Positions 18,101 through 61,100 of a DNA stretch of 64,000 nucleotides are shown piece by piece. Each line of letters starts with the position of its first letter. The stretch's first letter is position 1. Origin of the DNA: Lytechinus pictus (taxonomy: Eukaryota); the NCBI RefSeq assembly GCF_037042905.1, contig NC_087251.1, forward strand, positions 2,296,001-2,360,000, written 5' to 3'. The position numbers were made by a program, and so were the translations under genes. Under the pieces are notes generated by a model. It saw only the letters and a program-made list of their open reading frames with translations, had not been told where the DNA came from and searched no databases.

Positions 18101-18131
<31 letters not shown>

Positions 18132-27100: not shown

Positions 27101-29295
27101 TTGGGGTGACAATTGACAAGAATCTCACATTTCAACAGCATGTTAAGAATATTTGTAAGTCTGCCTCCTTTGGTATTTTTAAGATTGGAAAAATGAGGAG
27201 GCTACTCGACCAACCCACAACTGCTAAACTTACCCATGCTTTTGTATCTTCCCACATTGATTACTGCAATTCTGCTCTTTCTGGTATCCCACTGTCACAT
27301 TTACGCCCACTTCAAAGAATTCAAAATAGTGCTGCAAGGCTTGTTACTCTTTCAAGAAAATCTGAACATGTTACACCTATTCTGAAATCACTTCATTGGC
27401 TTCCAATACGCCAACGCATCATTTTCAAAGTTCTTCACATGACGTATAAAATAATCAATGGCCTAGCTCCTGAATACCTCTCTAATCTCATTTCTCTCCG
27501 CTCTTCTAGCTCACTCAGACCACTTCGTTCTTCAACAACCTTGCAGCTTACTTTAGGACCACGTACAAATACCAGTTATGGGGATCGAGCCTTTTCCGTT
27601 TTCGCTCCAATCCAGTGGAATAAATTACCATCTTACATCCATAATGCCAACTCCCTTGATCAATTTAAGACCTTGCTAAAGACCCACCTTTTTAATGTAT
27701 AGGTATCAGTTGTGGGTTGGTCTATATTGAGGTGCACATCTTAGTTGCATTTGTTTGTTTAAAATTTTGCTTTGAATATATCAAGTTTTTTTTTTTTTTT
27801 TTTTTTTTTCCCGGTAATTTAGTTGATAGGCAGAAAACTGAGCGCTTAGAAACACCTGTATTAAGCGCCCTACAAATGTTATAATTATTATTATTATTAT
27901 TAATAACACTTCATATCCACTTCCTCTCTGGAACAGTTTAATGGCCAGCTGGATAGGATACCACTGCACAATGGAAAAAGTTTTTTTTTTTAACTTGCAC
28001 AGGGAGCATTTTTACTTTATTCATGTACATCTGTAACTTCATTTTACCAAGGATCAACAATGTAGCATGGCATCCTATTTTTGTCTAGTACTACACAACA
28101 TTACAAAATGCTCCACCAAGAGGATGTACTACACCTGGAAGAAATAGAAGTAATTGTTTCATTATCATAGGTTTGAGACCACATTATGTAGGATCACAAG
28201 TGAATGTGTTATGTATGGAACCAAGGGTGTGTTCAATGTCGGTTTCCAAATTTGAACGGCAACATGGATCATGAATGACAACATGATTACAAAACGCAGA
28301 TATAATGAGAAACAAAGGGTGTCCACTATTCCTGGTCGTAAAAGTAAACGTCTTTCAAATCACAATTCGGAGGAAAATTTAAACGTCGAAAAAGATGTGT
28401 TTGTAAATGCAATCAACTCAAATTTAAGACCTTGAGCATCGCGAATGCAACATTGAACACAATTGCGTTTTGAAATGTCTTTAAGTTTTCTCTCACGGTG
28501 CAAGCCTACACAAACAGGTGCCAGAACTAACATTTCTTGTGCTTTGTCAAACTGAGCACTAAAGCTGCGCTAACGAAAGCGGGAAATCTAAAGACGATCG
28601 ACATATAAACGTCTTTATATTTTCGACACTGAGCGGTGCACCGCTGGTCGTGTTTGTGTTCAGTGTTTTGGAATTTATTTTTCAATCATGATTCATGTTG
28701 CTGTTTAAATTTGAAAATCAACATTGAACACACCCCAAGATGGAAATTAGTGGAAACCTTGTTTGTGTAAGAGGGGTTGACGTAACAGGCCAAAATATGT
28801 AAATATTGGAAATTGAGCAAGCTAGCATGAACTACTTAGCTTCTTCAGCAGTTCATGTCTTTTTCAATATTTTTTTTTAGTAATGATTTTCTTAATTGAT
28901 TGGTTTATCCTTTATCTACAGATTACAGAACCATTTAAGCCACCTGATGCTCTGAAACCTACAGAGATACCCAAACCCAATGAGACTCCTAAGAAAGTTG
29001 AGCCATTGAAGCCCAGTGTCCTTAGCACCCCTAAGACCCTACCCCTAGAGCTGCCCCCCAATGGGGGAGGGGGTACTCTACCAGCGGAACCTCCACATGT
29101 GACCATTGATCCTTCTCCTTTGAGTCCTGATCAGGATGAGAAGGCTAAGATGGAACAGACAGAGGAAGAGGTGCTACGATGTTTCGTGCTGATGCTGGAT
29201 CTTCTGATTATGCAGGTGAGATTCTATTCAGTGATTAGATGGTGTAATGATGGAAAGGATAATGATGATGATGATGATGGTGATGATGGTGATGG

Positions 29296-29329
<34 letters not shown>

Positions 29330-29330
29330 A

Positions 29331-29363
<33 letters not shown>

Positions 29364-38300: not shown

Positions 38301-40028
38301 TACAGCCCAGGGTCTATTAGCTGCTACTGAGGTTAGACATGAGGTATTGAAAGCTGAAACAGTTCAAGCCTTCTCAGCTGTATCTAATCTCAAAGCAGAG
38401 AAAGAGAGAGCAGCTAAGAAACCAGGAGGACTCAAACCACAAAAAGGTACAAAAGTAGTCGCACATTTTTGTCCTTTTATTTTCCCTTTTTCTTTCTTTG
38501 TCTTTTTTATTACTGTTTTTCTTTTTCTTTTGCACTTCTTTTGCTGTTATTATTCCTGGTCTTCTTCTGCTGCTTTTTTGTACTGATTCTTTTTCTTTGA
38601 CTTCTTCTTAAAATTTATTACTTCTTTTCTTGTTATACTCCTATTTTTTCTTCTCTCTCTTCTATTTCTTTTCCTCTGTATATCCTCTCCTCTTTTTATT
38701 CTGATCATTATTTTTCTTGTGTTTCTCATTTCTGTTCTGCATCATTTTAGCCATTTTTGTTTGTTTCATGAAAGCTTTCATATATTTCTTTCAGTTGTTA
38801 TTCAAAATCACTTATGTTTATTCAAAAAAAAATTCAAATGTGTAAAATCTTTATATCTTAATTTGAATTGTGTAAAGGAGACAAAGGAAAGCCTGGTAAG
38901 AAAGATCAAGATAAGTCTACATGGCATACAGGACATGGTGATTTTACCATCAAACTAGAAGAGCTTCCAAGATCACTTCAACTTCTCTTCATGTTACTCC
39001 AGGTAAATAAACCACCCAAACAGGTAGTCCAGATTAGATTACTCAAAACTAAATATTAGAGTGTTGTCTAACATAGCAACACTCTATTCATCCAAACTGG
39101 ATCCAAAAACCAAGCCTCATTGATAATATAAAACGTACAACTAGAAAACTTTGACTCTTGGTACTGAATCATTTAAAAAAAAGGAAAGTAAACATTCTTG
39201 TCATTAGATCCAAACATTGAATAAGATAGACACCAGATTGAAGAAATAACAATACCAATGTTGATAATGAGGAGGAACCATCTTAACAAAAAATGATTAG
39301 ACCTGTTTTCGATGTGTTATTCATTCATGGTGTCACAAAGTTATTGTCTCCCTTTGGCCCTGCTTAAAAAAAATTGAAAATTATAAATCAACGTGTGTGA
39401 CAAAAAATAACATACAGATATATTAAAACTTGATCAAATATTAATATTTTAGTAAAGGCAATTATTTTAAGAATGAAATGTGTCACTATGCATCCTTTTG
39501 GTTTTTGATATTTATCAAAGTGAATTTCTGATTAATTTTCAGGAGGTATCTAAGCATCCAGACCCTAATGTTTTGTTGAATCTGCTGAACTGTGTCAAAG
39601 TGCTGTGTTTGAATGCAGAATGCCTTAGACAAGCTGCTAAGGATCAAGTAGGATTCCTGGTCTATGCACAAGAGAATTTACTCATTCCAAGGTATTTACC
39701 AATTTAACTCTTTCATTTCCATTGTCTTTGATAATAAAGAGATCATTTACATGATTACATCATGAGATGACAGGAAGGTATTTGTTTCTTTTATTTCTTT
39801 TGAGATTGATGAATTCTCTTTGATAACCTGATAATATCTCCAATGTTATATTCTTTCTTTTCAACTCTTTAATTAGATCTGTGACATTTTCTGAGGTAAT
39901 TAAGCCTTGCAGTATTCTCAATTTCACTTTTGTCTCATAGCAGTGCTGCTACTAATGATAGGGATAATGAAATGACGATTATGATCATTAGAATGGTGGT
40001 GGTGGTGATGATGATGATGATTTTGATT

Positions 40029-40060
<32 letters not shown>

Positions 40061-40109
40061 GATGGTGATGATGAAGATGATGATGATTATGATGAAGATG
40101 AAGATGGTT

Positions 40110-40162
<53 letters not shown>

Positions 40163-43100
40163 CGTTGGGATGATAATAATTGTAATAATGAAAACATATC
40201 ATACCAATTTGATTTCAGTTTCTGGAACCTGTTAGAAGGAGAGTTATCTCATGTTGTTGAGCTCTTAGTGCCTCTGATCCTCCATTGTTTTGCCCTTCCT
40301 TGTGGAGCTGATGTGATGTGGAGATTAGTTGATAATGAGGTGGAAAGTGAAAGCTGGCAGACTAGATTCAGGGCAGGTAAGTGCCTCTATCATAATAAGG
40401 CAAGCATTTTTTCATCACTCGTTTCATTATTTTACAATGTTTTAAAGCTTCAATCAGTCACTGAACTACATACATTCATTGATATTTTGTTTATGCTCAC
40501 ATATATTAAGCTTTGTTTATTTATAGTATTTTTTAAATTGGTTAAAAGTTATAAGTGAACACTAGAAAGCCATTTATTATCTCTTGTTTTTGTTAAGGTG
40601 CTATGACAGACATAACAACCATAGAGACTAATACTTTATAATTGCATGATGCTTGCCCAAGGAGTTATCTTCAGTAAGGTTCTACAAAAACGAGAGACTT
40701 GTAACTTGAATTTTACTTAGGTGGAAATGAAATTTCCTTCAGAAGAAAATCTTAGATCGTTTCATCCAAGCATGATTATTTTTCAGTTCTAATGTGTATG
40801 ACATTGTTTTATTTGTCTTTGCTTGTTTGTATCGACAGCTGAGAGAGTGACAGTGATGCTGAGATGTGTAGAGAAGAAATCTCTTGGAAACAACACTGTT
40901 ATTATGGGATCTCTTGCCCATGCCTTCAGTTCATTAGTGGTTGCTACAGAAGATATCTGTCCTGCTGTATCAGCTAGGGCTATACTTATGCTTGAGAGTA
41001 TTCCAATGAAAGTCATCAAGGTAACCATCATATAGGATCATATTCTGAACTCAGGGTTTATGTCATTTCTGGTCTGAAGTTGTGGATCAACTTTGAAAAG
41101 CCAATTTTAACACAAATCTTTTTACAGTAAAGGTTCAGTTTATCAGATCATATGGCACCCATATCATTGATTACTGTCTGTGAATAATAAGTAAAACAGT
41201 TTATGTTATCCTTAAAGTATGGAAATAACACAGTTAGCATAAGAAGCATGTAATAAATCAAAAATTTTGACGGTTTCGGTATCTCATAATTTTAGTACTT
41301 TGGGATTTAACCAGCTGGTATTAAATAACTTTAAACTGTTCAAGCTGAGGTGATAATTAACAAAGATATGTGTTATTACAAATGCAGGAACTAGACCAAT
41401 AGTTGTCGTTCCTAGTAGACCTTTCCATAGAGGTGAAAGGTGGATGTGATCATTGATCATTAATAAAGCATGTAGTGGCAAAAGTGAATAGTTTGATGAA
41501 AAGAGAAATACTTCAGTAATTATGAAATCACTTTCCCTCACCAATCAATATTTCATAGTAAGATATATTCTTCCTTCATACCACTTATTGATGAACTCCT
41601 TTCTCTATATTTTAACTATGATCAGGTATTGGTAGGTTGTCTTGAGTTTCAATGGGACTCAGTCCTTGAGGATCGCGTGTTGATTCTATCTAAGCTACGT
41701 CTACTACATCACTTCATGCCAGTAGCTCCCGTACTCTCTTGGGAATTCTTTATGAATCGTCTTGATACTCTAGCTCTTGAAGCACAGGTGGACATGGAAC
41801 AAAACAAGGAGTTTCCATTCCCTATGGGTAAGTTGCTACTTAAGATTGCTACCTTTCAAACCCTTGACTACCTCTATCCTTTATTCACCCAGTCTTTATC
41901 TGCCCAATTCTCCTGTCATCTGTTTCTCCTGCAGTTCCCTATTTTCTTTACTTCTCTCTTAATACCCTTTATTGTTGTTGCCCTCTCTCTCACTTTCATC
42001 CCCTCCCCTCCCCATTTTCTCTCCACTTTTCTCCACTTTTCTTCTCTCTTTTTTCCTCTTATTCATTCTTTCCATTCCTTTTTTGTTAACATTGGTTGCT
42101 TTTCTCTCCTGAAGTATACATTTCAAAATCTTAAAATCAATCCTTTTTTAATGCATAACAACCTCAAAGACGTTCATTATTCTCTCAATCTAAATGCACA
42201 ATCTGTAGAAGATATCTCACAGGATGAGACATTTCATTTCCCAACAAATCCATGTTCATATTATCTTCCTGATGATTTTTGTAATAAATATAATAACTCT
42301 GACGATAGACTATCTCTATTACACTTAAATGCAAGGAGTCTCTGCTCAAATTTTAGTAAACTTGAGGAGTTACTGACTTCCCTTGATTTTTCGTTTTCTG
42401 TGATAGGAATATCAGAAACATGGCTGAATTCTTTCATGTTAACGTCTATTTATAATATATCTAATTACTCATTTGTTCACACATGTCGAGATTCCAAGAC
42501 TGGTGGGGGTGTTGCCTTGTATATTTCCGAAAACGTTGAATTCCTTGAAAGACCAGATCTGACTGTAAATAATTTATTTCTTCAAACTGTTTTTATTGAA
42601 ATTGTCAATGTTAACTCTAAGAATATAATTGTTGGGAATGTCTATAGACCTCCCAATACAGAAATTGACTTGTTTTTACATGATATGGATTCTCTGCTTT
42701 CTAAAATACACAATGAAAAAAAAATACTATACTTAATGGGAGATTACAATATCAATTTGTTAAATACTGATAGACACACTAAAAGCAAAGAGTTTGCTGA
42801 TAATATGTTCTCATACAATTTATTCCCAGTAATCACCAAGCCTACACGCATATCATATAAATCTGCTACTATAATAGATAATATTTTTACAAATGCAATC
42901 CAATTTGAATATGATAGTGGGCTACTATATTCTGACATTTCAGATCATTTCCCAATATTTTATGTTGCAAAAAAGTTTAATAATATTTCGATTTCAAGGG
43001 AACCCCGCCTGAAGAGAATGATAAATGATGATGGGATCGATTGCTTAAAAAAGAAATTGAGCTGTCTAGACTGGAAACCAATCTATGCATCCAACGATGT

Positions 43101-46100
43101 CAACCATGCCTATGATCTGTTTTACTCAATTTTTTATGATGCTTATAATGAATGTCTTCCTACTGTTAACAGTAAAAAAAAAAACACACGATTTCACAAA
43201 CCTTGGATTTCTTCTGGCATCTTGAAATCTATAAACAAAAAAAATATCCTATATAAAAATTTTCACAGATACTCTGGACCAGAAAAGATTAAAAAAAGGA
43301 AAGAAGAAAAATACAAAAGCTATAAAAACTGTTTGGTAAAAGTAATTCGGTTTGCAAAAAGAGAATATTATAATAAAAAATTTAACACCTTAAGAGGTAA
43401 CATGAAGAAAACATGGCAAGAAATTAATAACATATTGGGGAAAAAAGCTCAAATTTCTCTACCAACCAAAATGTTTTACAATAATGAATCTTTTGATACC
43501 AATCAAATGAAATCTAATTATTTCAACAGATATTTTGCAAATTTGGGCAAAAATCTTGCTCAAGTCATCCCTGACCCCCACACAGAGTTCATGTCTTTTT
43601 TAGGAGACAACAATATTCATTCAATGTTTTTTAAACCAACCAATATAAATGAAATACTAAAGATCTGCTCCTCCTTGAAATCAACGTTTTCCTGTGGCTC
43701 TGATGATATTATCCCATCTATTGTGAAAAAATGTATTTATCAATGTGTCCATCCACTGTGCCATATATATAATATGTCTCTTGAATATGGTGAAGTTCCT
43801 AATGCATTTAAAATAGCTAAAATTGTTCCAATTTTCAAAAAGGGTGATCGTAAAGACATTGTTAACTATAGACCAATTTCTGTTTTACCCATCTTTTCAA
43901 AGATACTAGAAAAAATTGTTTTTGAACGTTTGTACAGCTTTTTGAATCATAACAATATATTAATCTCACAACAATTTGGTTTTCGTAAAAGATATTCAAC
44001 ATACATGCCAATATTTCACATGTATGATCGTATAATGCAAGAAATAGATAAGGGTAATCTCACCATTGGTATATTTTTGGATCTCTCGAAAGCATTTGAC
44101 ACCGTTGACCATGACATACTTCTTAAAAAAATGAAACATTATGGGATAAGAGGTCTCGCTCTTGATTGGTTTGATAATTATTTATCAAATCGCATGCAGT
44201 ATGTTGTGGTCAACGGTGTCAAGTCAACTTTCAGTCATGTATCACACGGCGTTCCGCAAGGGTCTGTCCTCGGCCCCTTGCTTTTCCTTTTGTATATCAA
44301 TGACCTTGTAAATTGTTCCTCAATTCTTAATTTCATACTCTTTGCTGATGATACCAGTATTACTCTTTCTCAAAAAAATATTATTCCTCTCATTAACACC
44401 ATAAACATTGAACTTCGTGAAGTCGTTGTCTGGCTTCAATGCAATAAACTTTCACTGAACCTTGAAAAAACTAAATTTGTACTATTTAAAACACAAACTA
44501 AAAAAATTGGTAATGATTTTCCTCCAGTTATTATGGATGGCAAGATTATTTCCCAGGTATCAAATATAAATTTTTTAGGTATCAAGATCAATGAATTTCT
44601 ATCCTGGAAACCTCATATTGATGAATTATGCACTCGTTTATCAAAAAGTACTGGTGTCCTCCGCAAACTGAAGTTTATTTTACCCAGACATGTATTAATT
44701 TCACTTTATAATACTTTGGTTTTACCCCATCTCACTTATTGCTGTATGCTATGGGGGAATGGATTCAAAACACATTTACATAGATTATTTCTTATTCAAA
44801 AAAGGTTAATCAGAACAGTTTGTAATGCACATTTCAATAGTCACACAAACAAGTTATTTCTTGATTGTAAAATATTGAAAATTTCTGACTTGGTTCTTAT
44901 GTATACTTATATATTTATGTACAATTACCATTCAAATCTCTTGCCAAATATTTTTGATAATCTCTTCAACACAAATGCCTCTTTCCATTCATACTTTACG
45001 CGTCATTCAGCAGATCTTCACCAATATCTTCCAAAAACTAAAATTACCCAAAATTCTCTACGTTGTAGAGGAATTAAGCTGTGGAATGATTTAAATAATG
45101 ATATTAAACAAAGTAAAACCATAAATAAGTTTAAAATACTCTTGAAAGTTGAATTTTTTGCTCAGTATAAAAACTCCTGCCAATAGCACACTGTAGGTCA
45201 CTATTATTTATAATTATTACTTCTAGTTTGCTTGTTTGTTTATTTCCCCTATGTTAGCCCATTGTTTTTTGTTTTTTTTTTAATTGTATTTCAATGTTAT
45301 TTGTTGTTCACTCTTTATGTACATGTATGTATTATATTAATTTGTATTTGATTGTACCATGGTTGTGCCCCACTCACAAGTTTTTTTTAATGAAAACTTC
45401 TAGGGGCTCCCAATCCCATGTTTTTACCTAATTTGTATATACCTGTATTTTTATGATTGATTGATTGAAATAAATTTTGAATTGAATTGAATTTTTTTTT
45501 AATTTTAATTTTGATAAGTTTTTTTTATTCAAACAAAATAATTTGTAGCACACAAAAAAATTAACTTACCTCATATTTTTTCACATCCACTTGCTAGACA
45601 CGAGTCGTTCCAGTGCTGGCCTTGGTGACCGAACAGACATCTTCATGAACAAGCTGAACCGAGCTCGATTAGCTCGCTCCCAGTCTGAGCTTTCAGGAAC
45701 CCTGAAGCCTCGTCGTCTGTCTGCGGCTTTCAGTAAACAGGATAGCAAGGCTAGGAGCAAGTCTATGCCCACCGGTATCGGCTTTGCCCGCTTCAATTTC
45801 CCACCGTGTGAGTAAATAATAATGAAACACAATGGTGTATAATGCATTATACTTCACATCATATAATGTCCCTCTGATTCATTTAATTGAACAGAATGAA
45901 TTGAAGAAAATGTTACTTTTTAATGTAGTTACAAACTTCAAAATGATCTGATATATATTCTTGATATATTTTGGCGAGAGAAGTGGCTGCCTTTGTCTAT
46001 GAAAGTGGAGTCGTTGTATCACATTTGATTATTTTTATAATAATGATAATAATATGTCCATTTATATAGCACAGTAACTATGTGCATATACTCAACTGCG

Positions 46101-49100
46101 CTTTGATACTTAATATCATATTATTACCCCGGCTATAGATTGAATAGATAGAATGGGCATATGCTAATGTTCCCAAGGCAATGATGATTTCATACAAACA
46201 TCTGTAGACCTAATCATATTAAAAATAATAGTTACATTTATATAGTGCTTAATGCACTTTGTTTTGAAGTGTAGCTGTCATGTCCATGAAACCAACTCTT
46301 CCCTGCCCAGTATCGTCAATTCAAAACCAGGCACTACTTTTAATCCATATGTAGTCAGTCAGAAGGAAAAATATAAATTTCCTTCAGGTAGATAAAAAAA
46401 TAAATAAAAGGGACATAGTTCAATGACATGCTTAGTAAATTTTTTGCTTTAGAAATTTAATTCATCATTCTCTTTTCTCTTAGCTGATCGATCAACATAC
46501 AGCAGGCCAGCTAACTGCAGAGGAGATAATTTTCTGGTTGGAGATGGGTTGCTGGTGAATAGCTTGTTCCATGGTGAGTTGGGTATTTTGTACATTAATA
46601 TAAAATAATGAACTTGTTCCGGCTTTTTGACGAGTAGTAACATTAGCTTTAGTTGAAGCAATTATAATACAGCACTCGATTCTTCAAGGAATGAATCCTA
46701 CTAGGTACACCTGAGTCTGGTGTGGTATGTGTGGCTGTGATCAGACTTGAACCCCTGACTTTATGGTTCACACTCCAAGTCTTGTCCACAGATTCATAAT
46801 GCCTATATTCTTTTAAGCCATTGAGTCTATTGAATACTATGCCTAAGATATATCAAACTAGGGTTTGTGGAAAATGTGTACCATACTGAAATTAAATCAT
46901 GTTAAATATGTTAACCAAGAAGGAGATAAATTTTACACTTTTACACTTTGCCTGATATCATTAGTATCTATTACAAATGTTTCATCATACCAATATAAAT
47001 CATATCATTTCTTTCAGCCCTTTAAAAGAAATCTAGAATACCCTTCTATTGTAGGCGAATTGATCTCTACTACTTTTGTTTTGTAATGTAGTAGATGTCA
47101 TACAATATTATTATTTGTTAGAAATGAAAACTTAAATAATTTTTTTTTTCACAATTTATATTAAAATAGAGTGATGTTTTCATTCCATGATTATTCCAGG
47201 TAATGAATGATTGGAGTTTAACATCAAGCATGTTTATCATAATAATATATTTGATTGTTTTTGGTTTAGATGGTCACCTAAAAGGAATAAAAGAAGAGCT
47301 GAAAGAAGAGATACCAACTTTCAATATTGATCTGACTAATGCTGATAAACAGACTGTACATAAGCTTATTACACTCCTCATGATAGTGAGTATTAACATG
47401 TGTATCATCTTGAAATAATCAAAATCTATGTATTATATGAGTGTGAGAGTTCAGCTATTTAACTGATTTCAGCTATTTGGATTTTTCAGCTTTTAGTGTA
47501 CTTTGTCTGTATAACAATATATGAGCTTGAACAATTTTAGCTATTTTCATCTGTGCCTTTGTATGGTAATAAAATATTACAAGTGTAATCAATAGGTGTA
47601 AACAAAAATGATAATGATTTGGCCATAAGTAGTACCTTTTGACATGAGTGCTTGGATTTAGAACTGAATTTCTCTTGAAAAAGCCATGGAAAACATTTGA
47701 TAGTTTTCAATGCTATGGATTGGTGATATATAGAAGTAGATATAGTGGCTCATATTTTTAATAAGACAATATTTGTATGTTATATCTTCAGTTCATGACA
47801 GGGCCAACCAGTATGGATGATGATCAAGTTTCAGGAAGAGCTATGGTAAGTTGATGTCTGAATAAAAACTTGATTTTTCTATTCTCTACTCTCCTTGGTC
47901 ACCAGAAATATATAAAACATTGTTTGCTTATGCATCATATAAAAAGTCAGAATATTATATATGTACACTATCTATCTATAGCTTTGCTTTGAAAGATATC
48001 TTCATACATATATATGCAGTTTTGTTCTGAAGCTTAAGATTATCCCATTACCCTGAAGATGACCAAAGTAAATTAATTTCTTTGATGTTGCAGAATACTG
48101 TATTACGTCACCTGACAGTGTTGCTAGGTTACAACCAAGTTAGTAAGACCTTCAACCTTCCACCCCATCAACTGAGAGAATCAGCAGTCTTCTATGCATT
48201 CATGGCAGGATTACCAAAGGTTAGTATTGACAAGAAAAAAACAAGTGGAGAGGTGAATTGCCATTGATTGCAATTTCTCTCCCTCACCAAACTTTATTAT
48301 GCTTAAATATCATAAGATGCGAGAAGTATGAAGGAAAACAAAAAAAAAAGAACAATATTTAAACAATGTCTTACAAAACATAACAAAATATTATAACAAA
48401 TGTATGCATTTCAACCGGTAATTTATAAAGCTTACTTACAGTCACATGGCTACCATTTGTTGCATTCAGGAAAGAGCTAATGTAAAAAATACAACTAAAT
48501 GCATCAGACAGAAATTAAGCTTGACCAAGCTTGACCTACCCAAATGTTCTCACCTTCTGTAATATTAGTACTGCCACAGATACTACCTCCAGTATTTGTA
48601 CTATCCTTAGTGTTAAGTGTTATAGATGGCTGTGTATAACACTTCCATACTATAAAATGTGCTTCTTCATTTAACCTTGATTGGAAACCCATTTTTTATA
48701 CCAAGCATAATTAAATGGAATCCAATTATCAGGTGCTGTCCAGGCTTCTTTCATCATTGATTATAATATTCTCTCAACTCTCAGATGCTGGATCACAATG
48801 TAAAGGTTGGAAACATGGTATTACCTATGGTATTGAGTCTCCTACAGTACTGCCCTTCACCACAGAAATCATCTCAGGACTCACACCCTCCAGACTACAC
48901 TCTATGGTTCCTTGAACCTCACTGCAGACACTCCTGGTTTATGTCTCTACTCATTGTACTCTACAAGGTAAGTCTTTAGAAGAAACCTTAAAACTCACAC
49001 CCTATGGTTCCTTGAACCTCACTGCAGACACTCCTGGTTTATGTCTCTACTCATTGTACTCTACAAGGTAAGTCTTTAGAAGAAACCTTAAAACTCACAC

Positions 49101-52100
49101 CCTATGGTTCCTTGAACCTCACTGCAGACACTCCTGGTTTATGTCTCTACTTATTGTACTCTACAAGGTAAGTCTTTAGAAGAAACATTGAAACTCACAC
49201 CCTATGGTTCCTTGAACCTCACTGCAGACACTCCTGGTTTATGTCTCTACTCATTGTACTCTACAAGGTAAGTCTTTAGAAGAAACCTTAAAACTCACAT
49301 CCTATGGTTCCTTGAACCTCACTGCAGACACTCCTGGTTTATGTCTCTACTCATTGTACTCTACAAGGTAAGTCTTTAGAAGAAACCTTAAAACTCACAC
49401 CCTATGGTTCCTTGAACCTCACTGCAGACACTCCTGGTTTATGTCTCTACTCATTGTACTCTACAAGGTAAGTCTTTAGAAGAAACCTTAAAACTCACAC
49501 CCTATGGTTCCTTGAACCTCACTGCAGACACTCCTGGTTTATGTCTCTACTCATTGTACTCTACAAGGTAAGTCTTTAGAAGAAACCTTAAAACTCACAC
49601 CCTATGGTTTCTTGAACCTCACTGCAGACACTCCTGGTTTATGTCTCTACTCATTGTACTCTACAAGGTAAGTCTTTAGAAGAAACCTTAAAACTCACAC
49701 CCTATGGTTCCTTGAACCTCACTGCAGACACTCCTGGTTTATGTCTCTACTCATTGTACTCTACAAGGTAAGTCTTTAGAAGAAACCTTAAAACTCACAC
49801 CCTATGGTTCCCTGAACCTCACTGCAGACACTCCTGGTTTATGTCTCTACTCATTGTACTCTACAAGGTAAGTCTTTAGAAGAAACCTTAAAACTCACAC
49901 CCTATGGTTCCTTGAACCTCACTGCAGACACTCCTGGTTTATGTCTCTACTCATTGTACTCTACAAGGTAAGTCTTTAGAAGAAACATTGAAACTCACAC
50001 CCTATGGTTCCTTGAACCTCACTGCAGACACTCCTGGTTTATGTCTCTACTCATTGTACTCTACAAGGTAAGTCTTTAGAAGAAACATTGAAACTCACAC
50101 CCTATGGTTCCTTGAACCTCACTGCAGACACTCCTGGTTTATGTCTCTACTCATTGTACTCTACAAGGTAAGTCTTTAGAAGAAACCTTAAAACTCACAC
50201 CCTATGGTTCCCTGAACCTCACTGCAGACACTCCTGGTTTATGTCTCTACTCATTGTACTCTACAAGGTAAGTCTTTAGAAGAAACCTTAAAACTCACAC
50301 CATATGGTTCCCTGAACCTCACTGCAGACACTCCTGGTTTATGTCTCTACTCATTGTACTCTACAAGGTAAGTCTTTAGAAGAAACCTTAAAACTCACAC
50401 CATATGGTTCCCTGAACCTCACTGCAGACACTCCTGGTTTATGTCTCTACTCATTGTACTCTACAAGGTAAGTCTTTAGAAGAAACATTGAAACTCACAC
50501 CCTATGGTTCCTTGAACCTCACTGCAGACACTCCTGGTTTATGTCTCTACTCATTGTACTCTACAAGGTAAGTCTTTAGAAGAAACCTTAAAACTCACAC
50601 CCTATGGTTCCTTGAACCTCACTGCAGACACTCCTGGTTTATGTCTCTACTCATTGTACTCTACAAGGTAAGTCTTTAGAAGAAACCTTAAAACTCACAC
50701 CCTATGGTTCCTTGAACCTCACTGCAGACACTCCTGGTTTATGTCTCTACTCATTGTACTCTACAAGGTAAGTCTTTTGAAGAAACCTTAAAACTCACAC
50801 CATATGGTTCCCTGAACCTCACTGCAGACACTCCTGGTTTATGTCTCTACTCATTGTACTCTACAAGGTAAGTCTTTAGAAGAAACCTTAAAACTCACAC
50901 CATATGGTTCCCTGAACCTCACTGCAGACACTCCTGGTTTATGTCTCTACTCATTGTACTCTACAAGGTAAGTCTTTAGAAGAAACATTGAAACTCACAC
51001 CCTATGGTTCCTTGAACCTCACTGCAGACACTCCTGGTTTATGTCTCTACTCATTGTACTCTACAAGGTAAGTCTTTAGAAGAAACCTTAAAACTCACAC
51101 CCTATGGTTCCTTGAACCTCACTGCAGACACTCCTGGTTTATGTCTCTACTCATTGTACTCTACAAGGTAAGTCTTTAGAAGAAACATTGAAACTCACAC
51201 CCTATGGTTCCTTGAACCTCACTGCAGACACTCCTGGTTTATGTCTCTACTCATTGTACTCTACAAGGTAAGTCTTTAGAAGAAACATTGAAACTCACAC
51301 CCTATGGTTCCTTGAACCTCACTGCAGACACTCCTGGATTATGTCTCTACTCATTGTACTCTACAAGGTAAGTCTTTAGAAGAAACATTGAAACTCACAC
51401 CCTATGGTTCCTTGAACCTCACTGCAGACACTCCTGGTTTATGTCTCTACTCATTGTACTCTACAAGGTAAGTCTTTAGAAGAAACATTGAAACTCACAC
51501 CCTATGGTTCCTTGAACCTCACTGCAGATACTCCTGGTTTATGTCTCTACTTATTGTACTCTACAAGGTAAGTCTTTTGAAGAAACCTTGAAACTCACAC
51601 CCTATGGTTCCTTGAACCTCACTGCAGACACTCCTGGTTTATGTCTCTACTTATTGTACTCTACAAGGTAAGTCTTTAGAAGAAACCTTAAAACTCACAC
51701 CCTATGGTTCCTTGAACCTCACTGCAGACATTCCTGGTTTATGTCTCTACTTATTGTACTCTACAAGGTAGGTCTTTAGAAGAAACCTTAAAACTCACAC
51801 CCTATGGTTCCTTGAACCTCACTGCAGACACTCCTGGTTTATGTCTCTACTCATTGTACTCTACAAGGTAAGTCTTTAGAAGAAACATTGAAACTCACAC
51901 CCTATGGTTCCTTGAACCTCACTGCAGACACTCCTGGTTTATGTCTCTACTCATTGTACTCTACAAAGTAAGTCTTTAGAAGAAACCTTAAAACTCACAC
52001 CCTATGGTTCCTTGAACCTCACTGCAGACACTCCTGGTTTACATGTATGTCTCTACTTATTGTACTCTACAAGGTAAGTCTTTTGAAGAAACCTTAAAAC

Positions 52101-55100
52101 TCACACCCTATGGTTCCTTGAACCTCACTGCAGACACTCCTGGTTTATGTCTCTACTTATTGTACTCTACAAGGTAAGTCTTTAGAAGAAACCTTGAAAC
52201 CCACACCCTATGGTTCCTTGAACCTCACTGCAGACACTCCTGGTTTATGTCTCTACTTATTGTACTCTACAAGGTAAGTCTTTTGAAGAAACCTTAAAAC
52301 TCACACCCTATGGTTCCTTGAACCTCACTGCAGACACTCCTGGTTTACATGTATGTCTCTACTTATTGTACTCTACAAGGTAAGTCTTTAGAAGAAACCT
52401 TAAAACTCACACCCTATGGTTCCTTGAACCACACTGCAAACGCTCCTGGTTTATGTCTCTACTCATTGTACTCTACAAGGTAAGTCTTTAGAAGAAACCT
52501 TGAAACTCACACCCTATGGTTCCTTGAACCTCACTGCAGACACTCCTGGTTTATGTCTCTACTCATTGTACTCTACAAGGTAAGTCTTTAGAAGAAACCT
52601 TGAAACTCACACCCTATGGTTCCTTGAACCTCACTGCAGACACTCCTGGTTTATGTCTCTACTTATTGTACTCTACAAGGTAAGTCTTTAGAAGAAACCT
52701 TGAAACTCACACCCTATGGTTCCTTGAACCTCACTGCAGACACTCCTGGTTTATGTCTCTACTCATTGTACTCTACAAGGTAAGTCTTTAGAAGAAACCT
52801 TGAAACTCACACCCTATGGTTCCTTGAACCTCACTGCAGACACTCCTGGTTTATGTCTCTACTTATTGTACTCTACAAGGTAAGTCTTTAGAAGAAACCT
52901 TAAAACTCACACCCTATGGTTCCTTGAACCTCACTGCAGACACTCCTGGTTTATGTCTCTACTCATTGTACTCTACAAGGTAAGTCTTTTGAAGAAACCT
53001 TGAAACTCACACCCTATGGTTCCTTGAACCTCACTGCAGACACTCCTGGTTTATGTCTCTACTCATTGTACTCTACAAGGTAAGTCTTTAGAAGAAACCT
53101 TGAAACTCACACCCTATGGTTCCTTGAACCTCACTGCAGACACTCCTGGTTTATGTCTCTACTTATTGTACTCTACAAGGTAAGTCTTTTGAAGAAACCT
53201 TAAAACTCACATCCTATGGTTCCTTGAACCCCACTGCAGACACACTTGCACACCAGTATATAATTTTGATTACAATAAAAGATTTCATTATTGTGATATC
53301 TTTAGATGATCTCTCTATAAGCATGTTAAACTTATTTATTGGTATGGTATCGAAGTACTTAAGTAATCCTTGATCTGATATGGCAAGTAAGAATTTACAA
53401 TTAAGTAATACGGAGATCAAATAGTAGTATAACCTATTAATGATTCAAATCTTTAGAACTTGTATGAACTTATATAACCATTGGTTTTCCCTGCTTATTT
53501 TCTTAGTATTCCATAGACCAAGCTGAATTGAAGACCACACTGAAGGCTTTAGTGCGTATCACTATGAATGTATTAGAATCACAGCGTCATATCTGTAAAC
53601 CAAAGAGACCAGAACCACCACAACCAGAGGATATCTGGGGTGCTACCTTGCCCAACAAAAACAAATCAGGTATCAGATTGCCTATGATGATGGAATGAAA
53701 GAATGAAGTGTTGTCAGTAAAGTCATTCACATGGGATTACCTGTGAAGAAAATGTTGACCAATTCTTTGTGCAGCCACCAATAAAACTGTTAATACATTT
53801 CCCAATTTTTCTACACAGTCTATAATTCTCTGCAGTACAAGGTGACTTTTTTCATAAATCTGTAAAGAAAAATCTCAATTTTTTTAAAGAGAATTCTGGT
53901 TTAGCAAAATATATAATTTTGATGAATATTCTAACACACTTAGTAAACGTTTCTAGATTAAACTGATTTAGACTCAAGACTTTGCACTGAGTATTATGAA
54001 ATTTAAAGCTGGTGGGTGATTTTGGAAAGGTGATGTGGCAACCCATGAAATAATGGTAATTTCATGAATTATTGAAAAACAATGAAACAACACCTGCATA
54101 CATGTGTTAAAAATGTACTGTAAAGAAAAGAGCATGAGTAAAACTACATATATGAAGAATTTAGTTGCAAAAGGGGTTAGGTCCACTTTGGACCATTCCG
54201 AGAAAAACCATGTTTTTTTATTCTCAGTTATTGCAATATTCTTATGAGAAACTAAATTGTCATGATGTACTACCCTATCATGTGAACATAAAATTGGGTA
54301 TAAAAGAAATCTACCTGTCTTCAATTTTTTTTTCTATATATTCTTTTAAAAATTATTATTGTGGACCTAACCCCTTTTTGCAAGCAAACTGAAATGAATC
54401 CAATCTATTTTGATGAAAAATAAAGATTTTTCTTTGCCACTTTTATTAACGTTTTCATGTGAATTTCAAATTTTCTTTGTTTTCATCTGAGCGACTAAAA
54501 ATTTAGAGGTTTTGAGACAGAAAACAATAAAATTTATGAACAATGGACCTAACCCCTTTTGACAAATAAACACTTCAGAAGAGTTTGTTTGCAAAAGGGG
54601 TTAGGTCCACTCCAAGAAAATCATTTTTTTTCTTCCCATATTGCAATATTCTTATGCGAAACTAAATTTTCATGATATCCTACCATGAGAACATGAAATC
54701 GGGTATTAAAAAAATCTACCCGTCTTCATATTATTTAAAATATTCTTTTCCAAAAAAATTATGTGTGGACCTAACCCCTTTTGCAACCAAACTGAAAAGG
54801 ACCTAACCCCTTTTGAAAAAAAAAAGATATTTATTTGCCATTTTAGATCACTTTTTAATGGGAATTTCAACTTTTCTTTGGTATCATCTTATAGAGCTAC
54901 TAAAAATCTATACATTGAGAAAAAAAAATCAAATTTGATGAAAAATGGACCTAACCCCTTTTGCAAGTGAGCTCTTCATATCGTGCTTCATGCCATTCAT
55001 CAATACAAAGTAAGCCAGAGCCAGTAGTGGTGACAGTGATTGAACAGGGAAATGGTTAAAGGAGAATGAAACTCTTGGAGCAAGTTAGCTTTTGTGAAAG

Positions 55101-58100
55101 CAGAAAAATCAAAGAATAAGATCAACAAAAGTTTGAGTAAAATAGGACTAGCAATAGAAGAGTTATGAGCATTTGAATGTCGAGATCACTAATGCTATGG
55201 AGATCCTCCCATTGGCAATGTGACCAAGATCTATGATGTCACAGATGAACAACTCTCCCCTTTTGGACACTGAAAATATACCCCAAAACATCTCTTTTTG
55301 CTCATTCTAATCATATGACAAACGATTCATCCATGATATAATGTTGTGAAACCTCGGTACTTGTCCTCTCATAAAGAGAACACCTCACCTTGTGATAGAC
55401 TCTATAAAAGTGAGAATATATGTGAAATAAGTACTAAAGTAATGAGGAAGTTGTACGTGTGTGACATCACAGATCTTGGTCGCATTGCCAATCGGAGGAT
55501 CTACATGGCATTAGTGATCTCAATATTCAAATGCTCATAACTTTCTTATTATTCATTCAATCTTCCTCAGACTTTCAACAATATGTTTCTTTGATTTTTC
55601 TCTTTGATATGGATTCAGCTGGTTTCAAGGGTTTCATTCTCCTTTAATGTAGGGGCAAGATTACTAAGTTTATGTTTACATAACAGATTACGGTACCTAA
55701 AAGAAAGATCCTTGTAAAGTTGTATGGATTCTTCCTGCATTTATATATGAGCAAATTTTGATATAAATTACCTTTCAATTTTTCAGAGTCAAGCCTTCCT
55801 CGTGAGGATGATATCAGTGAGGAACTTGGTTCCATCTCATCAGTTGGTCCAAACACCCCTCTCCTTACCTCCACCACTACCACCACCACTGCTATCAAGA
55901 CCACTGAACCTAGCAGCCCACCAGGTGACACGCCCTCCTCTCCTACCCCTAGGGTGGAGTTTATTACCCCTGGTCAAGTTATTACTACTATCAGCAGTGG
56001 AGGTGGAGGTGGTAGAGGAACAGGTGGTGGAGTGGCTGTTCCCAAGGAGGATCCACGTGTACCCCAGCATCAGGAACTGGAGCTAGAGCCTGAGATGCTC
56101 TTTGTGTCAGAAGATGAGGTTATCAATCTACCTATCAACTCTTCAAGTAGGAACTTTGTTGCATCTACTATTCTTGAGGTAAGAACATCAAATTATGCAA
56201 TCAATCATGTTGAATACCTTTTTAAGCTTTCAACTGGGATATGGCATGCCAAATATATGTCTCAATATCAAGGTGAATTTGCAGATTTGTTGAACATATC
56301 AACTGAAAGAACACATTTTCAGGTCAAAGCATTTTTTTCCTTTATTTGAATTTAAATACAGTCATTGATTTCTTATTATTTCAAGAAATACTTTTTGCCT
56401 CATTTTTAGCTCATCCGGCCCGAAGGGCAAGATGAGCTTGTGGCGTGGCGTCCGTCGTCCGTCCACAATTTCAAAATGCTTCTTCTTCGCCATTTCAAGT
56501 CCGATTTCAATTCTGTTTGCATTATATGATAGCACTAGGTGGGGGATTCAAAACTTCTACACAGAATTTTGAAACTCATTAAATATGCTAATTTATGTGC
56601 ATTTTTCAAAATTCACAAAAAATGCTTCTTCTTTATTTGTTGACCGATTTTGAATTTTTTGCTTCCATCTAGTAGAGCTTCATTAGGTTCACCAAACTTC
56701 TACACAGGATTTTGAAATTTTGAGTATAACAATTTTTATGCTAATTTATGCGAAAATTAATTAATGCATATTTTTAAAAATTCACATAAAATGCTTCTTC
56801 TTCTGAATTTTTTGACCGATCTTGATTTTTTGTCTTCCAACTGGTAGAGCTTCATGAGGTTCACCAAACTTCTACACAGAATTTTGAGTAGAAAATTATT
56901 TATGCTAATTTATGCGAAATTCATAAATCACTGAAAATGCCTCTTTATTTGTTGACTGTATTTCAAAATGCTTCTTCTTCGTCATTTCAAGTCTGATTTC
57001 AATTCTGTTTGCTTTTTATGATAGCATTAGGTGGGGGATTCAAAACTTCTACATAAAATTTTGAAACTCATTAAATATGCTAATTTATGCGCATTTTTCA
57101 AAATTCACAAAAATGCTTCTTTATTTGTTGACCGATTTTGAATTTTTTGCTTCCATCTGGTAGAGCTTCATGAGGTTCACCAAAATTCTACACAGAATTT
57201 TGAAATTTTGAGTAGAACAATTTCTATGCTAATTTATGCGAAATTAATTTATGCATATTTTTAAAAATTCACATAAAATGCTTCTTCTGAATTTGTTGAC
57301 CGATTTTGATTTTTTTTCTTTCATCTGGTAGAGCGTCATGAGGTTCACCAAACTTCTACACAGAATTTTGAACTTTTGACTAGAAACTTTGTAATGCTAA
57401 TTTATGCGTATTTTTAAAAATTCATATAAAATGCTTCTTCTTTATTTGTTGACCATTTTTTTTTTTTTTTTCTTCCATCTGGTAGAGCTGCCTGGGGAAC
57501 ACCAAACTTGTACACAAAATTTTGAAATTTTGTCTAGAAAATTATTAATGCTAATTTATGCAAAATTTATTCATAAATCACAAAAAATGATTTTCTCCTT
57601 CATTTGTTGATCAGTTTCAATTTGTTTGCTTTATATGATAGCTCTAGGTGGTGATACAAAATTTCAACACAGAATTTTGAAACTCATTAATATGCTAATT
57701 TATTCATATATTTTCAAAACTCACAAAAAATACTTATTTATTTGTTTGATTGATTTTGATTATTTTTCTTCCATCTGAGAGCTACATGAGGTTCATCAAG
57801 GTTCTACACAAGAGTTAAGAAATTTTGACTAGAAAATTATTTATGCTGATTTATATGAAATTTATTCATGCTTCTATGTCATTTCTTCATCAATTTCAAT
57901 TCTATATCCTCAATCTATGTCACCAATATCATTCACTACAATGTCAACTGGGCTGAAATTAAAATTGTGTTAAATTTCGTTGCGAGATGCCGGATGAGCT
58001 CCACATCATTGATGTGCTAGTTGTTATGCTTAAATGATAATATTTCTGTTTTATGTAATTAACAGGAGCAAGTAACAATGCATAATGATATGATATTTTT

Positions 58101-61100
58101 TTTCAATGGAAATACAATTAAAACTTAAACAGCAACAAAATATGACTGGGGATTACCAAAAAGAAATTTCATATTAATATTTATCATATTAATGTTTAAA
58201 AAGTATCCCTATTCCAGTCATTTGTGAAGTCATGTATGACTTCAGTAACATTCAAATTCAATTCCACATTTATTTCCAAACGTAAAAGCATAAATACATT
58301 TATAAAACTTACAATACAATGTGATAAATGTACCATGACATATAGACAATAAGACATCTTTATAGAACACTTCAAACATATGTATTTATTTATTCATTTA
58401 TTCATTTGATTTAGGTTGAAGAAGAAGAAGAGCCTGAACCAGAGCTTGAGGTGGTAGAAGACTTTGAAATGATTCAACCTCTACAGACCTTAGACTCAGT
58501 AGTTGAACCTATCAAAGCTACTGCTACATTTGTAGCTGAGGAACCAATGAAAGCTACTCCTACCTTTGTAGCAGAGCAACCTGAGACTGTTACTCATACA
58601 GCAGCTCAGGTATATACTTTCTTCTAATAATCAATAGTGAAGTGGGATTTAATGATATCACATATGAACAGACATAGCAGGAGGAGGTTAATATCCTCTA
58701 AATTATATATCTTTAAAAGGTCTAAACATAACAAAACTAAAAAGATATACTAGTTCGTATTTCAATTTAGATAAGTTGCATGGTGTTTTGCCTTGTATAT
58801 TTCATAGAACATTATTCACTACTTTGCACTTTTATGCACAACATTTAAACCTATTCATATATGCAGAGATTTTCTGTGATAAGTACAAAGCTCAGACTAA
58901 TTATGAATGTATAGAAACCTATAAGTCCTTACAAGTTTTAAGATTTCAGTGTTGTACCTATTCTTAAATCTTTTACGACAGTTTGTAACTGAATTAGAGA
59001 CAGCTACTGTGCAGAGCCTGACTGTTGAACCTCAGGTCATTCAAGCTGCTACTGTCCAGACAGCTACCGTAGCAGAGACCAAACCTAAGACAATCCAACC
59101 AAAGTTCCGAACCAAGAAACGTCGAAAGATGGGTGTGGCCACCATCATGTCATCAAATCAGAGCAGTGGAGAGAACTCGCCAGCAGTAGGAGGGGGTGGG
59201 GATGGGGTGCAATTTGACCTTCCAGTAGATTCCCCTGGTGGTAGAGGAAAAGGAGGAGATAAGAATAAGAAGAGATCTCAAAAACTTAAAGAACAAGCAC
59301 AGAAATCACCAGAGAAGAGAAGCAGTGTCTACTCAGCAGTCAGACGATATCATGAAGATAAAAACTTTATGGCTCTTACCAAGTAAGTGTCAATCATCAC
59401 TTTTTCATCCAATGATTGATTGTAGACATCAAACCATGAAACACACACAAAGCAAACTTAATGTTAAACTGGAAATGAGTGTATGAAAAAATTCTGCGAA
59501 TTGGAGTCGCTACTCTGATCAAATTAAGGTTCCACTGGTTTTTTTGTCTCGCCTGCATAGCAGAGCGAGACTATAGGCGCCGCTTTTCCGGCGGCGGCGG
59601 CGTCAACATCAAATCTTAACCTAAATTTTTTAAATGACATCATAACTTAGAAAGTATATGGACCTAGTTCATGAAACTTGGACATAAGGTTAATCAAGTA
59701 TTACTGAACATCCTGCCTGAGTTTCAGGTCACATGACTAAGGTCAAAGGTCATTTAGGGTCAATGAACTTAGACCATGTTGGGAGAATTATTTTCAAAAT
59801 CTTAACCGAAGGTTAAGTTTTTGAAATGACATCATAACTTAGAAAGTATATGGACCTAGTTCATGAAACTTGGGCATAAGGTTAATCAAGTATTAGCGAA
59901 CATCCTGCTCGAGTTTCAGGTCACATGACCAAGGTCAAAGGTCATTTAGGGTCAATGAACTTTGGTCAAGTTGGGGGTATTTGTTGAATTACTATCATAA
60001 CTTTGAAAATTTATGGATCTAGTTCATGAAACTTGGACATAAGGTTAATCAAGTATTAGTGAACATCCTTCCTGAGTTTCAGGTCACATGACCAAGGTCA
60101 ATGGTCATTTAGGGTCAATGAACTTTGGCCAAGTTGGGGGTATTTGTTGAATTACCTTCATAACTTTGAAAATTTATGGATCTAGTTCATGAAACTTGGA
60201 CATTAGGTTAATCAAGTACCACTGAATATCCTGTGCGAGTTTCAGGTCACATGACCATGGTCAATGGTCATTTAAGGTCAATGAACTTTGGCCGTTTTGG
60301 GGGTCTTTGTTAAATTACCATCCTAACTCTGAAGGTTTATGGATCTACTTCATAAAACTTGGACATAAGAGTAATCGAGTATCACTGAACATCCTGTACG
60401 AGTTTCAGGTCACATGACCATGGTCAAAGGTCATTTAAGGTCAATGAACTTTGGCCGTGTTGGGGGTATATGTTGAATTACCATTCTAACTCTGAAGTTT
60501 ATGGATCTATTTCATAAAACTTAGGATATAAGAGTAATCAAGTATCACTGAACATCCCCTGTGAGTTTCAGGTCACAAAACCAAGGTCAAAGGTCAGTTA
60601 AGGTCAATAAACTTAGGTCATGTTGGGGTAATTGTTGAATTGCCATCATAACTTTGAAAGTTTATGGATAGAGTGAATGAAATGTGGACATGGGTGTAGT
60701 TGACAAGTCTTAAGTCACCGTTCAAATGTCATCTATGGTCAATGAACGTGGTATTATGTCATTATATGAATGGTGTTTTTGTGAATGATTATCTTACAGT
60801 AGTTTTCAAAGTTAGCACTGCTGCTATATTAAATCGCGTAATGCAGGCGAGACTGCCAGAGGCGTTCCACTTGTTTTGTGTGTGTGTGTGTTTATTGGTA
60901 TGTATGGGTTTGATTCTTAAATCTTTCGCATAGAGTTCATAACATATTCCAAATGCTTTGGGTAAATTGCTGTTGGATATACAATTATTCTTCACAGTTC
61001 TCATAGTTTTGGTAATTATGTAGACAGACACACAAAAAGTGAGTATTCCTCTTTGTGCAATGGTACGGTATCTTGCAATAGGTGAGAGACTCAATTAAAC

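What the first reader, a model, noticed from the sequence alone, without database searches (positions are those of the whole stretch)
48897..53243. A 43-copy tandem array built from an unc-79 exon end plus its 5' splice site
Seen: the 100-bp unit is the last ~67 nt of coding exon 33 (LWFLEPHCRHSWFMSLLIVLYK), the donor AAG|GTAAGT and 33 nt of intron. The pre-mRNA therefore carries one real donor and 42 near-identical copies over 4.3 kb. The unit junction actcacaccct|atgg matches exon sequence actcacaccct(ccagactacactct)atgg, suggesting a microhomology-mediated origin. Variants (cctta/cattg/ccttg, ctcatt/cttatt, catatgg) occur in runs, as expected from unequal crossing-over. Inference: simple read-through to a later donor meets TAG just after the first donor, so the array could act as decoy U1 sites, an NMD-coupled dosage control or a copy-number-variable locus in a neuronal gene.
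Basis: partly seen in the sequence, partly recalled or inferred. Interest (0 to 1): 0.85.

Follow-up and report, generated by a model that had tools for sequence, protein, structure and literature searches.

The report
Splice-donor minisatellite in urchin unc-79
The end of one exon of a sea-urchin nerve-channel gene, with its splice signal, is copied 42 more times into the next intron; the one transcript seen is spliced normally, so this is likely a harmless repeat of a kind already known from human and amphioxus genes.

Summary
The array is as described: 43 full 100-nt units plus a 29-nt partial unit (48903-53243). It starts inside coding exon 33 of Lytechinus pictus unc-79 and gives 43 donors. 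The one spliced RNA contig laid (depth 4.4) joins the exon-33 end to exon 34; its length (30+183+163+96 = 472) fits use of the first donor. Two raw RNA runs had no reads, so rare isoforms are untested. The seed is therefore likely older than this expansion. The same donor is also repeated in a moth and in an unnamed animal (2 of 141 related proteins), with different unit lengths. This is the known exon-boundary minisatellite class (human F7, LMNB2 with a 100-bp unit, CBS; amphioxus 'mirages'). The scan noted it before at about eight other loci of this genome and in shark and annelid genomes. A decoy-U1 or NMD dosage role has no support here. One untested lead remains: 41 intronic copies hold a weak CAG acceptor that could define 40-nt frameshifting pseudo-exons.

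The parts
5917..62243 (+). unc-79 gene, coding exons 2-40 (the gene continues past the last exon mapped; exon 1 not placed with confidence)
   Evidence: Spliced alignment: 2067 of 2067 aa identical to L. pictus XP_054759130.2. Pfam UNC-79 PF14776 at E 2.8e-15 on the exon at about 17.8 kb
48094..48219 (+). coding exon 32
48785..48967 (+). coding exon 33 (183 nt, 61 codons, phase 0); its last 65 nt are the first part of unit 1
48879..48889 (+). 11-nt exon stretch that reappears at every unit junction; likely start of the templated copy that seeded the repeat
   Evidence: sequence; no other + strand copy in the window outside 48871-53250
48903..53243 (+). minisatellite: 43 full 100-nt units (two of 106 nt) plus a 29-nt partial unit; 43 donor sites
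48965..48973 (+). authentic 5' splice site, ranked 2 of 38 donors of the gene (12.9 bits, leave-one-out)
   Evidence: use inferred from the RNA contig
48977..48979 (+). in-frame TAG met by any read-through to a later donor
49025..49067 (+). example in unit 2 of a weak CAG acceptor (49025-49027) and a 40-nt pseudo-exon (49028-49067) ending at a donor copy; CAG intact in 41 of 42 intronic copies
   Evidence: 3.4 bits; 5 of 38 true acceptors score as low; unit 36 has lost the AG; use not observed
52040..52047 (+). 6-nt insertion giving TACATGTA in unit 32; the same insertion is in unit 35 at 52346-52353
53215..53243 (+). 29-nt partial unit: the seed direct repeat, also present in organism B
   Evidence: records 2 and 4 align without gaps through 53255
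53244..53506 (+). unique remainder of intron 33 with the acceptor at 53506
53507..53669 (+). coding exon 34
   Evidence: spliced joint
55787..56178 (+). coding exon 35
   Evidence: the loose end of the RNA contig is its first letters

Best explanation
This is an exon-boundary minisatellite that likely has no function: 43.3 copies of the exon-33 end plus its donor fill intron 33, and the spliceosome likely takes the first donor and removes the whole array. Shown: the array, the gene structure, one canonical exon 33-34-35 contig, and a 1.3-copy allele with the same junction in a related organism. Inferred step 1: a copy of about 39 nt of exon 33 (starting at 48879 and skipping 14 nt between two near-identical 7-mers) was inserted about 25 nt into the intron, likely by a template-switch or repair event, and left a 29-35 nt direct repeat spaced exactly 100 nt. 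Inferred step 2: misalignment between these repeats gave a 2.3-copy allele before organisms A and B parted. Inferred step 3: unequal exchange then expanded and homogenised the array in the window's lineage, with older variants kept towards the 3' end. Inferred step 4: exon definition from the exon-33 acceptor favours the nearest donor, and any rare use of a later donor or of one or two 40-nt pseudo-exons makes a premature stop and is likely cleared by NMD.
For: RNA contig X1 (organism A) joins the exon-33 end to 53507 and exon 34 to exon 35. Its 472 letters equal 30 of exon 32 + 183 + 163 + 96, and it is unbroken where array-derived words would branch; the left 147 letters were not displayed, so first-donor use rests on this sum. 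Annotated L. pictus, L. variegatus and S. purpuratus proteins and one Logan product all read straight from exon 33 into exon 34 (6 of the 7 proteins examined; the seventh, 109 aa, lacks this region). Organism B DNA (X6) gives record 3 leading to record 4 (110 nt) or record 2 (210 nt), then to record 5. The two middle records end at the same base and differ by exactly 100 nt, and summed depth over the unit is 42-98 against 44-105 on the covered flank. Record 2 shows no difference from unit 43 at unit positions 50 and 76, the two variants enriched in the 3' part of the window's array (p = 0.006 and 0.023, uncorrected, six variants tested). Copies are not under coding constraint: 5 of 10 distinct substitutions in the exon part change the amino acid, and the unit is not a multiple of three. 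The same donor is repeated with other unit lengths in Plutella xylostella (7 x 40 aa) and in an unnamed ENA-contig organism (4 x 14 aa), and the moth protein has a second repeat elsewhere, as expected of a general mutational process. Precedent: PMC1557585 (abstract, Introduction and Discussion read) and PMC3087553 (passages read).
Against: The RNA evidence is one contig at depth 4.4 from an individual whose copy number is unknown; contigs drop rare variants. IFI6 (6-16) and CBS do use a second and third donor (PMC1557585, Introduction). The donor is near-optimal (rank 2 of 38), and in F7 perfect-consensus pseudo-sites could compete (Discussion). The internal CAG scores within the range of real acceptors of this gene, and the gene has real exons of 32 and 39 nt. 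Five of 10 exon-part substitutions are synonymous against 20 of 65 possible transitions, a slight excess that I did not test statistically. Contig depths in organism B do not add up along the path (64, then 19+23, then 40, then 36+36, then 44), and the left 68 letters of record 2 were not shown.
Confidence: 0.8

Rival explanations
1. Leaky array that lowers unc-79 output: later donors, or the 40-nt pseudo-exons defined by the internal CAG and each donor copy, are used at a rate that rises with copy number, and the products go to NMD (three pseudo-exons together would restore the frame). Copy number would then act as a splicing or expression QTL.
For: 41 of 42 intronic copies keep the CAG; its score of 3.4 bits is matched or undercut by 5 of 38 real acceptors; the donor ranks 2 of 38. 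One or two pseudo-exons give stops at codons 81 and 91 of the joined exons, three give none. CBS and IFI6 use extra donors (PMC1557585, Introduction). The ABCA7 VNTR affects splicing (PMC5954066, title and abstract start only).
Against: No back-going joint or branch in the one RNA contig. The CAG is only at the 85th percentile of 2,090 intronic decoy AGs. The amphioxus authors report that mirages do not disturb splicing (PMC3087553, passages). NMD would hide these products, so the negative result is weak.
Confidence: 0.13
2. The short seed repeat is real, but the 43-copy length is inflated or made by the assembler.
For: No DNA run of organism A was listed. Organism B shows only 1.3 and (inferred) 2.3 copies. 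RNA contig X1 had no depth over the intronic part of the unit.
Against: There are 23 distinct unit types with clustered, polarised variants (p = 0.001; distance from unit 1 rises with position, rho 0.38, p = 0.012). A shared 6-nt insertion sits in two non-adjacent units, and two variants match the relative's second unit. Only one three-unit block of mixed types recurs, so the array is not a pasted duplicate of a read.
Confidence: 0.05
3. Selected regulatory device: a bank of U1-binding decoys kept to control unc-79 splicing, premature polyadenylation or neuronal dosage.
For: 41 of 43 donors are unchanged, and the same donor is repeated in two other organisms.
Against: The whole unit is 98.4% uniform, so intact donors reflect youth and not selection. 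The relative lacks the long array. Unit length and frame differ among the three organisms (100 nt with a stop, 120 nt open, 42 nt open). The scan's notes report the same layout in unrelated housekeeping genes of this genome (unchecked).
Confidence: 0.02

Closest known systems
Human exon-boundary minisatellites: F7 IVS7 (37 bp, 5-9 copies), LMNB2 (100 bp, 10-15 copies), PDGF intron 4 (81 bp, 16-18), CBS IVS13 (15-20), IFI6/6-16 (25 pseudo-sites). Borensztajn et al. 2006, PMC1557585; abstract, Introduction and Discussion read. The other four genes are known to me only from that Introduction.
   Same: The first monomer spans the exon-intron boundary, so the donor is reiterated. Copy number varies. 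The most upstream donor is used in F7, LMNB2 and PDGF. LMNB2 has the same 100-bp unit size.
   Different: More copies (43) and a 65-nt exon part (F7 has 4 nt). The host is a sea urchin. Function of the pseudo-sites is not tested here, and within-species length polymorphism is not shown.
Amphioxus 'mirages' (Adh3; globins BflGb6, BflGb9). PMC3087553; the 5 passages holding the word 'mirage' read, supplements not opened. PMC3902484 seen as a search listing only.
   Same: Minisatellite-like tandem duplication of an exon-intron boundary in an invertebrate deuterostome. Haplotypes differ in copy number (6 against 3), interior units are homogenised while boundary units diverge, and splicing is reported as normal.
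   Different: Echinoderm host and a much longer array. The seed state (1.3 copies) is visible in a relative. Somatic instability is not tested.
ABCA7 intron-18 VNTR (PMC5954066; search listing and abstract start only)
   Same: Intronic VNTR whose length is reported to affect splicing; the model for the leaky rival.
   Different: No effect on splicing is shown for the urchin array.

Membership tests
Exon-boundary minisatellite / mirage | Head-to-tail repeat whose first unit spans an exon-intron boundary | tested here: met
   unit 1 = 48903-49002 spans the exon-33 donor at 48968
Exon-boundary minisatellite / mirage | Splice site reiterated in the intron in near-identical form | tested here: met
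   41 of 43 donors identical, 2 with one change
Exon-boundary minisatellite / mirage | Variable copy number | tested here: inconclusive
   43.3 here against 1.3 (shown) and 2.3 (inferred) in organism B; not tested within the window's species
Exon-boundary minisatellite / mirage | Turnover by unequal exchange: clustered variants, divergent boundary units | tested here: met
   neighbour similarity p = 0.001, polarity p = 0.012
Exon-boundary minisatellite / mirage | Normal mRNA made from the most upstream donor | tested here: inconclusive
   one contig at depth 4.4 is canonical by its joints and its length sum; two raw RNA runs gave no reads
Tandem duplicated (mutually exclusive or cassette) coding exons | Each copy has a full acceptor and donor and keeps the reading frame | tested here: not met
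   the real exon-33 acceptor is not in the unit; the unit is 100 nt with an in-frame TAG; the pseudo-exon is 40 nt
Recursive splice sites (ratchet points) | Strong acceptor directly followed by a donor (AG|GT) | tested here: not met
   the AAG before each donor scores -1.1 bits, below all 38 real acceptors
Poison-exon / NMD-coupled regulation | Stop-introducing isoform is produced and is stabilised by NMD block | not testable with these tools
   stops predicted; no NMD-blocked data
Poison-exon / NMD-coupled regulation | Element conserved across species | tested here: not met
   no long array in the one organism-B individual laid

The most novel reading that the evidence does not exclude
The array is a copy-number dial: 41 repeated weak-acceptor/strong-donor pairs form a bank of 40-nt poison pseudo-exons, so longer alleles send more unc-79 mRNA to NMD and lower NALCN-channel activity. 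The same donor is prone to such amplification across animals (three cases: urchin, moth, one unnamed organism; arrays with a stop or out of frame, like this one, would be invisible in the protein search).
Probability: 0.08. Interest if true: 0.65.

Novelty: new member of a known kind. Interest (0 to 1): 0.24.

Why it matters
As one locus it is ordinary. Its modest value is that three stages of minisatellite birth are visible at one site: a 1.3-copy seed, an inferred 2.3-copy allele and a 43.3-copy expansion. It also offers a natural test of first-donor selection outside mammals, with 42 competing donors. Such arrays mislead gene prediction: the moth protein model runs through to the seventh donor. 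If the pseudo-exons are used in proportion to copy number, the locus would be a tunable splicing QTL in a neuronal excitability gene of a tractable laboratory urchin.

Tried and rejected
No whole genome is held for this window, so no genome-wide count was possible. The run search listed no holder on record as RNA and no DNA run of organism A. Two raw RNA runs, X22 and X23 (about 6 in 100 of each read), laid 0 reads on 53114-54103, which is no test. Only 4 of the 24 listed runs were laid, on a stretch holding the last unit and exon 34, not the whole array. The word-indexed protein search with exon 33 found nothing at E <= 0.001. A metagenome scan for the junction motif found 0 matches. The earlier-findings look-ups for look-alike stretches and for nearby notes were empty. 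Three multi-stretch protein hits (P0002, P0121, P0134) are unrelated repeats on inspection and were dropped. Rejected: recursive splice site (acceptor score below all real ones); duplicated coding exons (no acceptor, frame broken); a coding repeat on either strand (all six frames of three joined units contain stops). A hotspot specific to this donor is not claimed: 2 of 141 related proteins show it, there was no matched control exon, and the moth protein and P0147 carry period-44 and period-40 repeats elsewhere. Only exon 33 of the 39 exons tested in this gene has edge copies. Literature searches that gave nothing usable: TACATGTA as a transposon footprint (top 15 of 425 listings), other VNTR-splicing loci that I recalled, templated insertion seeding minisatellites, partial-exon repeats, the L. 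pictus assembly, the CBS VNTR primary papers, and passages of PMC10078293. No sea-urchin description of this class turned up; subscription papers are not covered.
Full report
Observation. Tandem Repeats Finder reports 48897-53243, period 100, 43.3 copies. Parsing gives 43 full units from 48903 and a 29-nt partial unit ending at 53243. Two units carry a 6-nt insertion; 10 of 43 units, unit 1 included, are identical to unit 1; mean identity is 98.4%; there are 23 unit types. Each unit is the last 65 nt of an exon, the donor, and 35 nt in all after the cut. Of 43 donors, 41 are unchanged. Neighbouring units are more alike than in shuffles (2.02 against 2.47 differences, p = 0.001), and distance from unit 1 rises along the array (rho 0.38, p = 0.012).

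Gene. The exon matches human UNC79 in solved structures (E 3e-11). A spliced alignment maps exons 2-40; the translation equals L. pictus XP_054759130.2 at 2067 of 2067 residues, against 11 differences plus 2 gaps to L. variegatus. The window is therefore L. pictus unc-79. The exon is number 33 if one upstream exon, which I could not place, is counted. Exon 34 starts at 53507, only 263 nt after the array. Intron 33 is 4539 nt, the second longest of the 38 introns mapped; with one unit and the partial unit it would be 327 nt. No other of the 39 exons tested has copies of its edge in the neighbouring introns.

Splicing. I laid 4 of the 24 listed runs on 53114-54103 (last unit, unique intron, exon 34). 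The two raw RNA runs gave no reads, which is no test. One contig of organism A (99% alike, so probably the window's species; depth 4.4) joins the exon-33 end to 53507 and exon 34 to exon 35. Its 472 letters equal 30 from exon 32, all 183 of exon 33, all 163 of exon 34 and 96 of exon 35. Its left 147 letters ran beyond the stretch and were not displayed, so first-donor use is inferred from this sum. It has one unlisted difference from unit 43, as expected if it carries the exon's base at unit position 50. It is not broken at the unit start or the donor, so that run's contigs show no array-derived form, but depth is low and the individual's copy number is unknown. Annotated proteins of three urchin species read straight through this junction. 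Any later donor reached by read-through meets TAG at 48977.

Each unit has a CAG 40 nt before its donor. On a matrix built from this gene's own 38 acceptors it scores 3.4 bits; 5 of 38 real acceptors score as low, but so do about 15 in 100 intronic decoy AGs or higher. It is intact in 41 of 42 intronic copies. One or two such pseudo-exons give a premature stop, three restore the frame. Use was not observed. The AG directly before each donor scores below all real acceptors, so these are not ratchet points.

Origin. DNA contigs of organism B (about 90-97% alike) cover the unit, the partial unit, the unique intron and exon 34 at flat depth, with no high-depth unit contig. Record 4 aligns without gaps from unit position 32 through the partial unit into unique intron: a 1.3-copy allele. 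Record 2 ends at the same base, is exactly 100 nt longer, and overhangs the left end by 68 letters, which is what a path starting at position 32 of a previous unit requires. I infer a 2.3-copy allele on the other haplotype; the overhang was not displayed, and depths along the path do not add up neatly. Record 2 shows no difference from unit 43 at positions 50 and 76, the variants enriched in the 3' part of the window's array. The seed and likely the second copy are thus older than the split, and the 43-copy, exon-like expansion is younger. The last 10 letters of each unit plus the first of the next match exon 48879-48889 exactly. The simplest reading (inference) is that about 39 nt of exon 33 were copied into the intron with a 14-nt skip between near-identical 7-mers, leaving direct repeats 100 nt apart on which unequal exchange acted. 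A tandem duplication of 114 nt followed by two deletions gives the same result, and I cannot tell these apart.

Recurrence. An exhaustive protein search with exon 33 listed 150 of 159 hits; 141 of the 150 carry the exon-end motif, and 85 of those continue with V, the read-through of a GT donor, so this intron position is widespread. Two of the 141 repeat the exon end: a Plutella xylostella gene model (CAG9132700.1; 7 copies, 40 aa, open frame) and an unnamed ENA-contig protein (4 copies, 14 aa, diverged). These are protein-level observations; their DNA was not seen. Unit lengths and frames differ, so I take them as independent events. Arrays with stops would be invisible to this search. The moth protein has another repeat elsewhere, and I had no control exon, so a hotspot is not shown.

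Comparison with what is known. PMC1557585 (abstract, Introduction and Discussion read) describes minisatellites whose first monomer spans an exon-intron boundary. In F7, LMNB2 (100-bp unit, 10-15 copies) and PDGF only the first donor is used; CBS and IFI6 use two more. For F7 it shows that pseudo-sites are functional but outcompeted by the most upstream one. PMC3087553 (five passages read; supplements not opened) describes amphioxus 'mirages' with haplotype length differences, concerted evolution and normal splicing. The urchin array meets the structural criteria; within-species polymorphism and exclusive first-donor use are only partly tested. The scan's own unchecked notes list the same layout at about eight other places in this genome and in shark and annelid genomes; one of them gave me the amphioxus lead.

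Verdict. A real, young, large example of a known class, most likely neutral (0.8). A copy-number-dependent leak through later donors or 40-nt pseudo-exons is possible and untested (0.13). An inflated assembly (0.05) and a selected decoy device (0.02) are unlikely. Interest 0.24.

Noticed in passing
P0003 (Plutella xylostella CAG9132700.1), residues about 95-360 and 567-650: The predicted unc-79 protein contains 7 tandem copies of the orthologous exon end plus 14 read-through residues (40-aa period), probably a gene-model error over an in-frame exon-boundary array; a second repeat of period 44 lies further on.
   Followed up: partly
P0008 (unnamed, ENA contigs), residues 58-109: Four diverged 14-aa copies of the same exon end plus donor read-through; a third likely independent array at this donor.
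   Followed up: partly
window 52040-52047 and 52346-52353: The 6-nt insertion in units 32 and 35 makes TACATGTA, which I recall as a Tc1/mariner excision footprint (recalled; one search gave no source). The 8-mer occurs 11 times in the window against 2.3 expected from base composition.
   Followed up: partly
window 41500-45186 (+): A 1228-codon stop-free frame runs from before unc-79 exon 27 through its donor into an endonuclease/reverse-transcriptase-like retroelement ORF in intron 27 (domain names by eye, not scanned). Read-through would fuse UNC79 to the element; may be chance.
   Followed up: no
window 24475-27702 (-): Uninterrupted 1075-codon ORF that looks like a LINE-type endonuclease/reverse transcriptase in intron 18, on the strand opposite the gene (by eye). 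A shorter similar fragment lies at 37228-37983 (-).
   Followed up: no
window 10054-10903, 14426-15842, 56468-57854, 59830-60691: Four intronic arrays of 154-168-bp units, 4-6.5 copies each, older and more diverged than the exon-33 array.
   Followed up: no
window 54153-54966 and 55056-55647: A 79%-identical direct duplication of about 400 nt with internal inverted matches, and a 200-nt inverted pair, in intron 34; transposon-end-like.
   Followed up: no
window 53282-53491, organism B contigs: The two haplotypes of organism B differ from each other in this intron stretch about as much (16 or more listed substitutions plus insertions in 210 nt) as each differs from the window.
   Followed up: no
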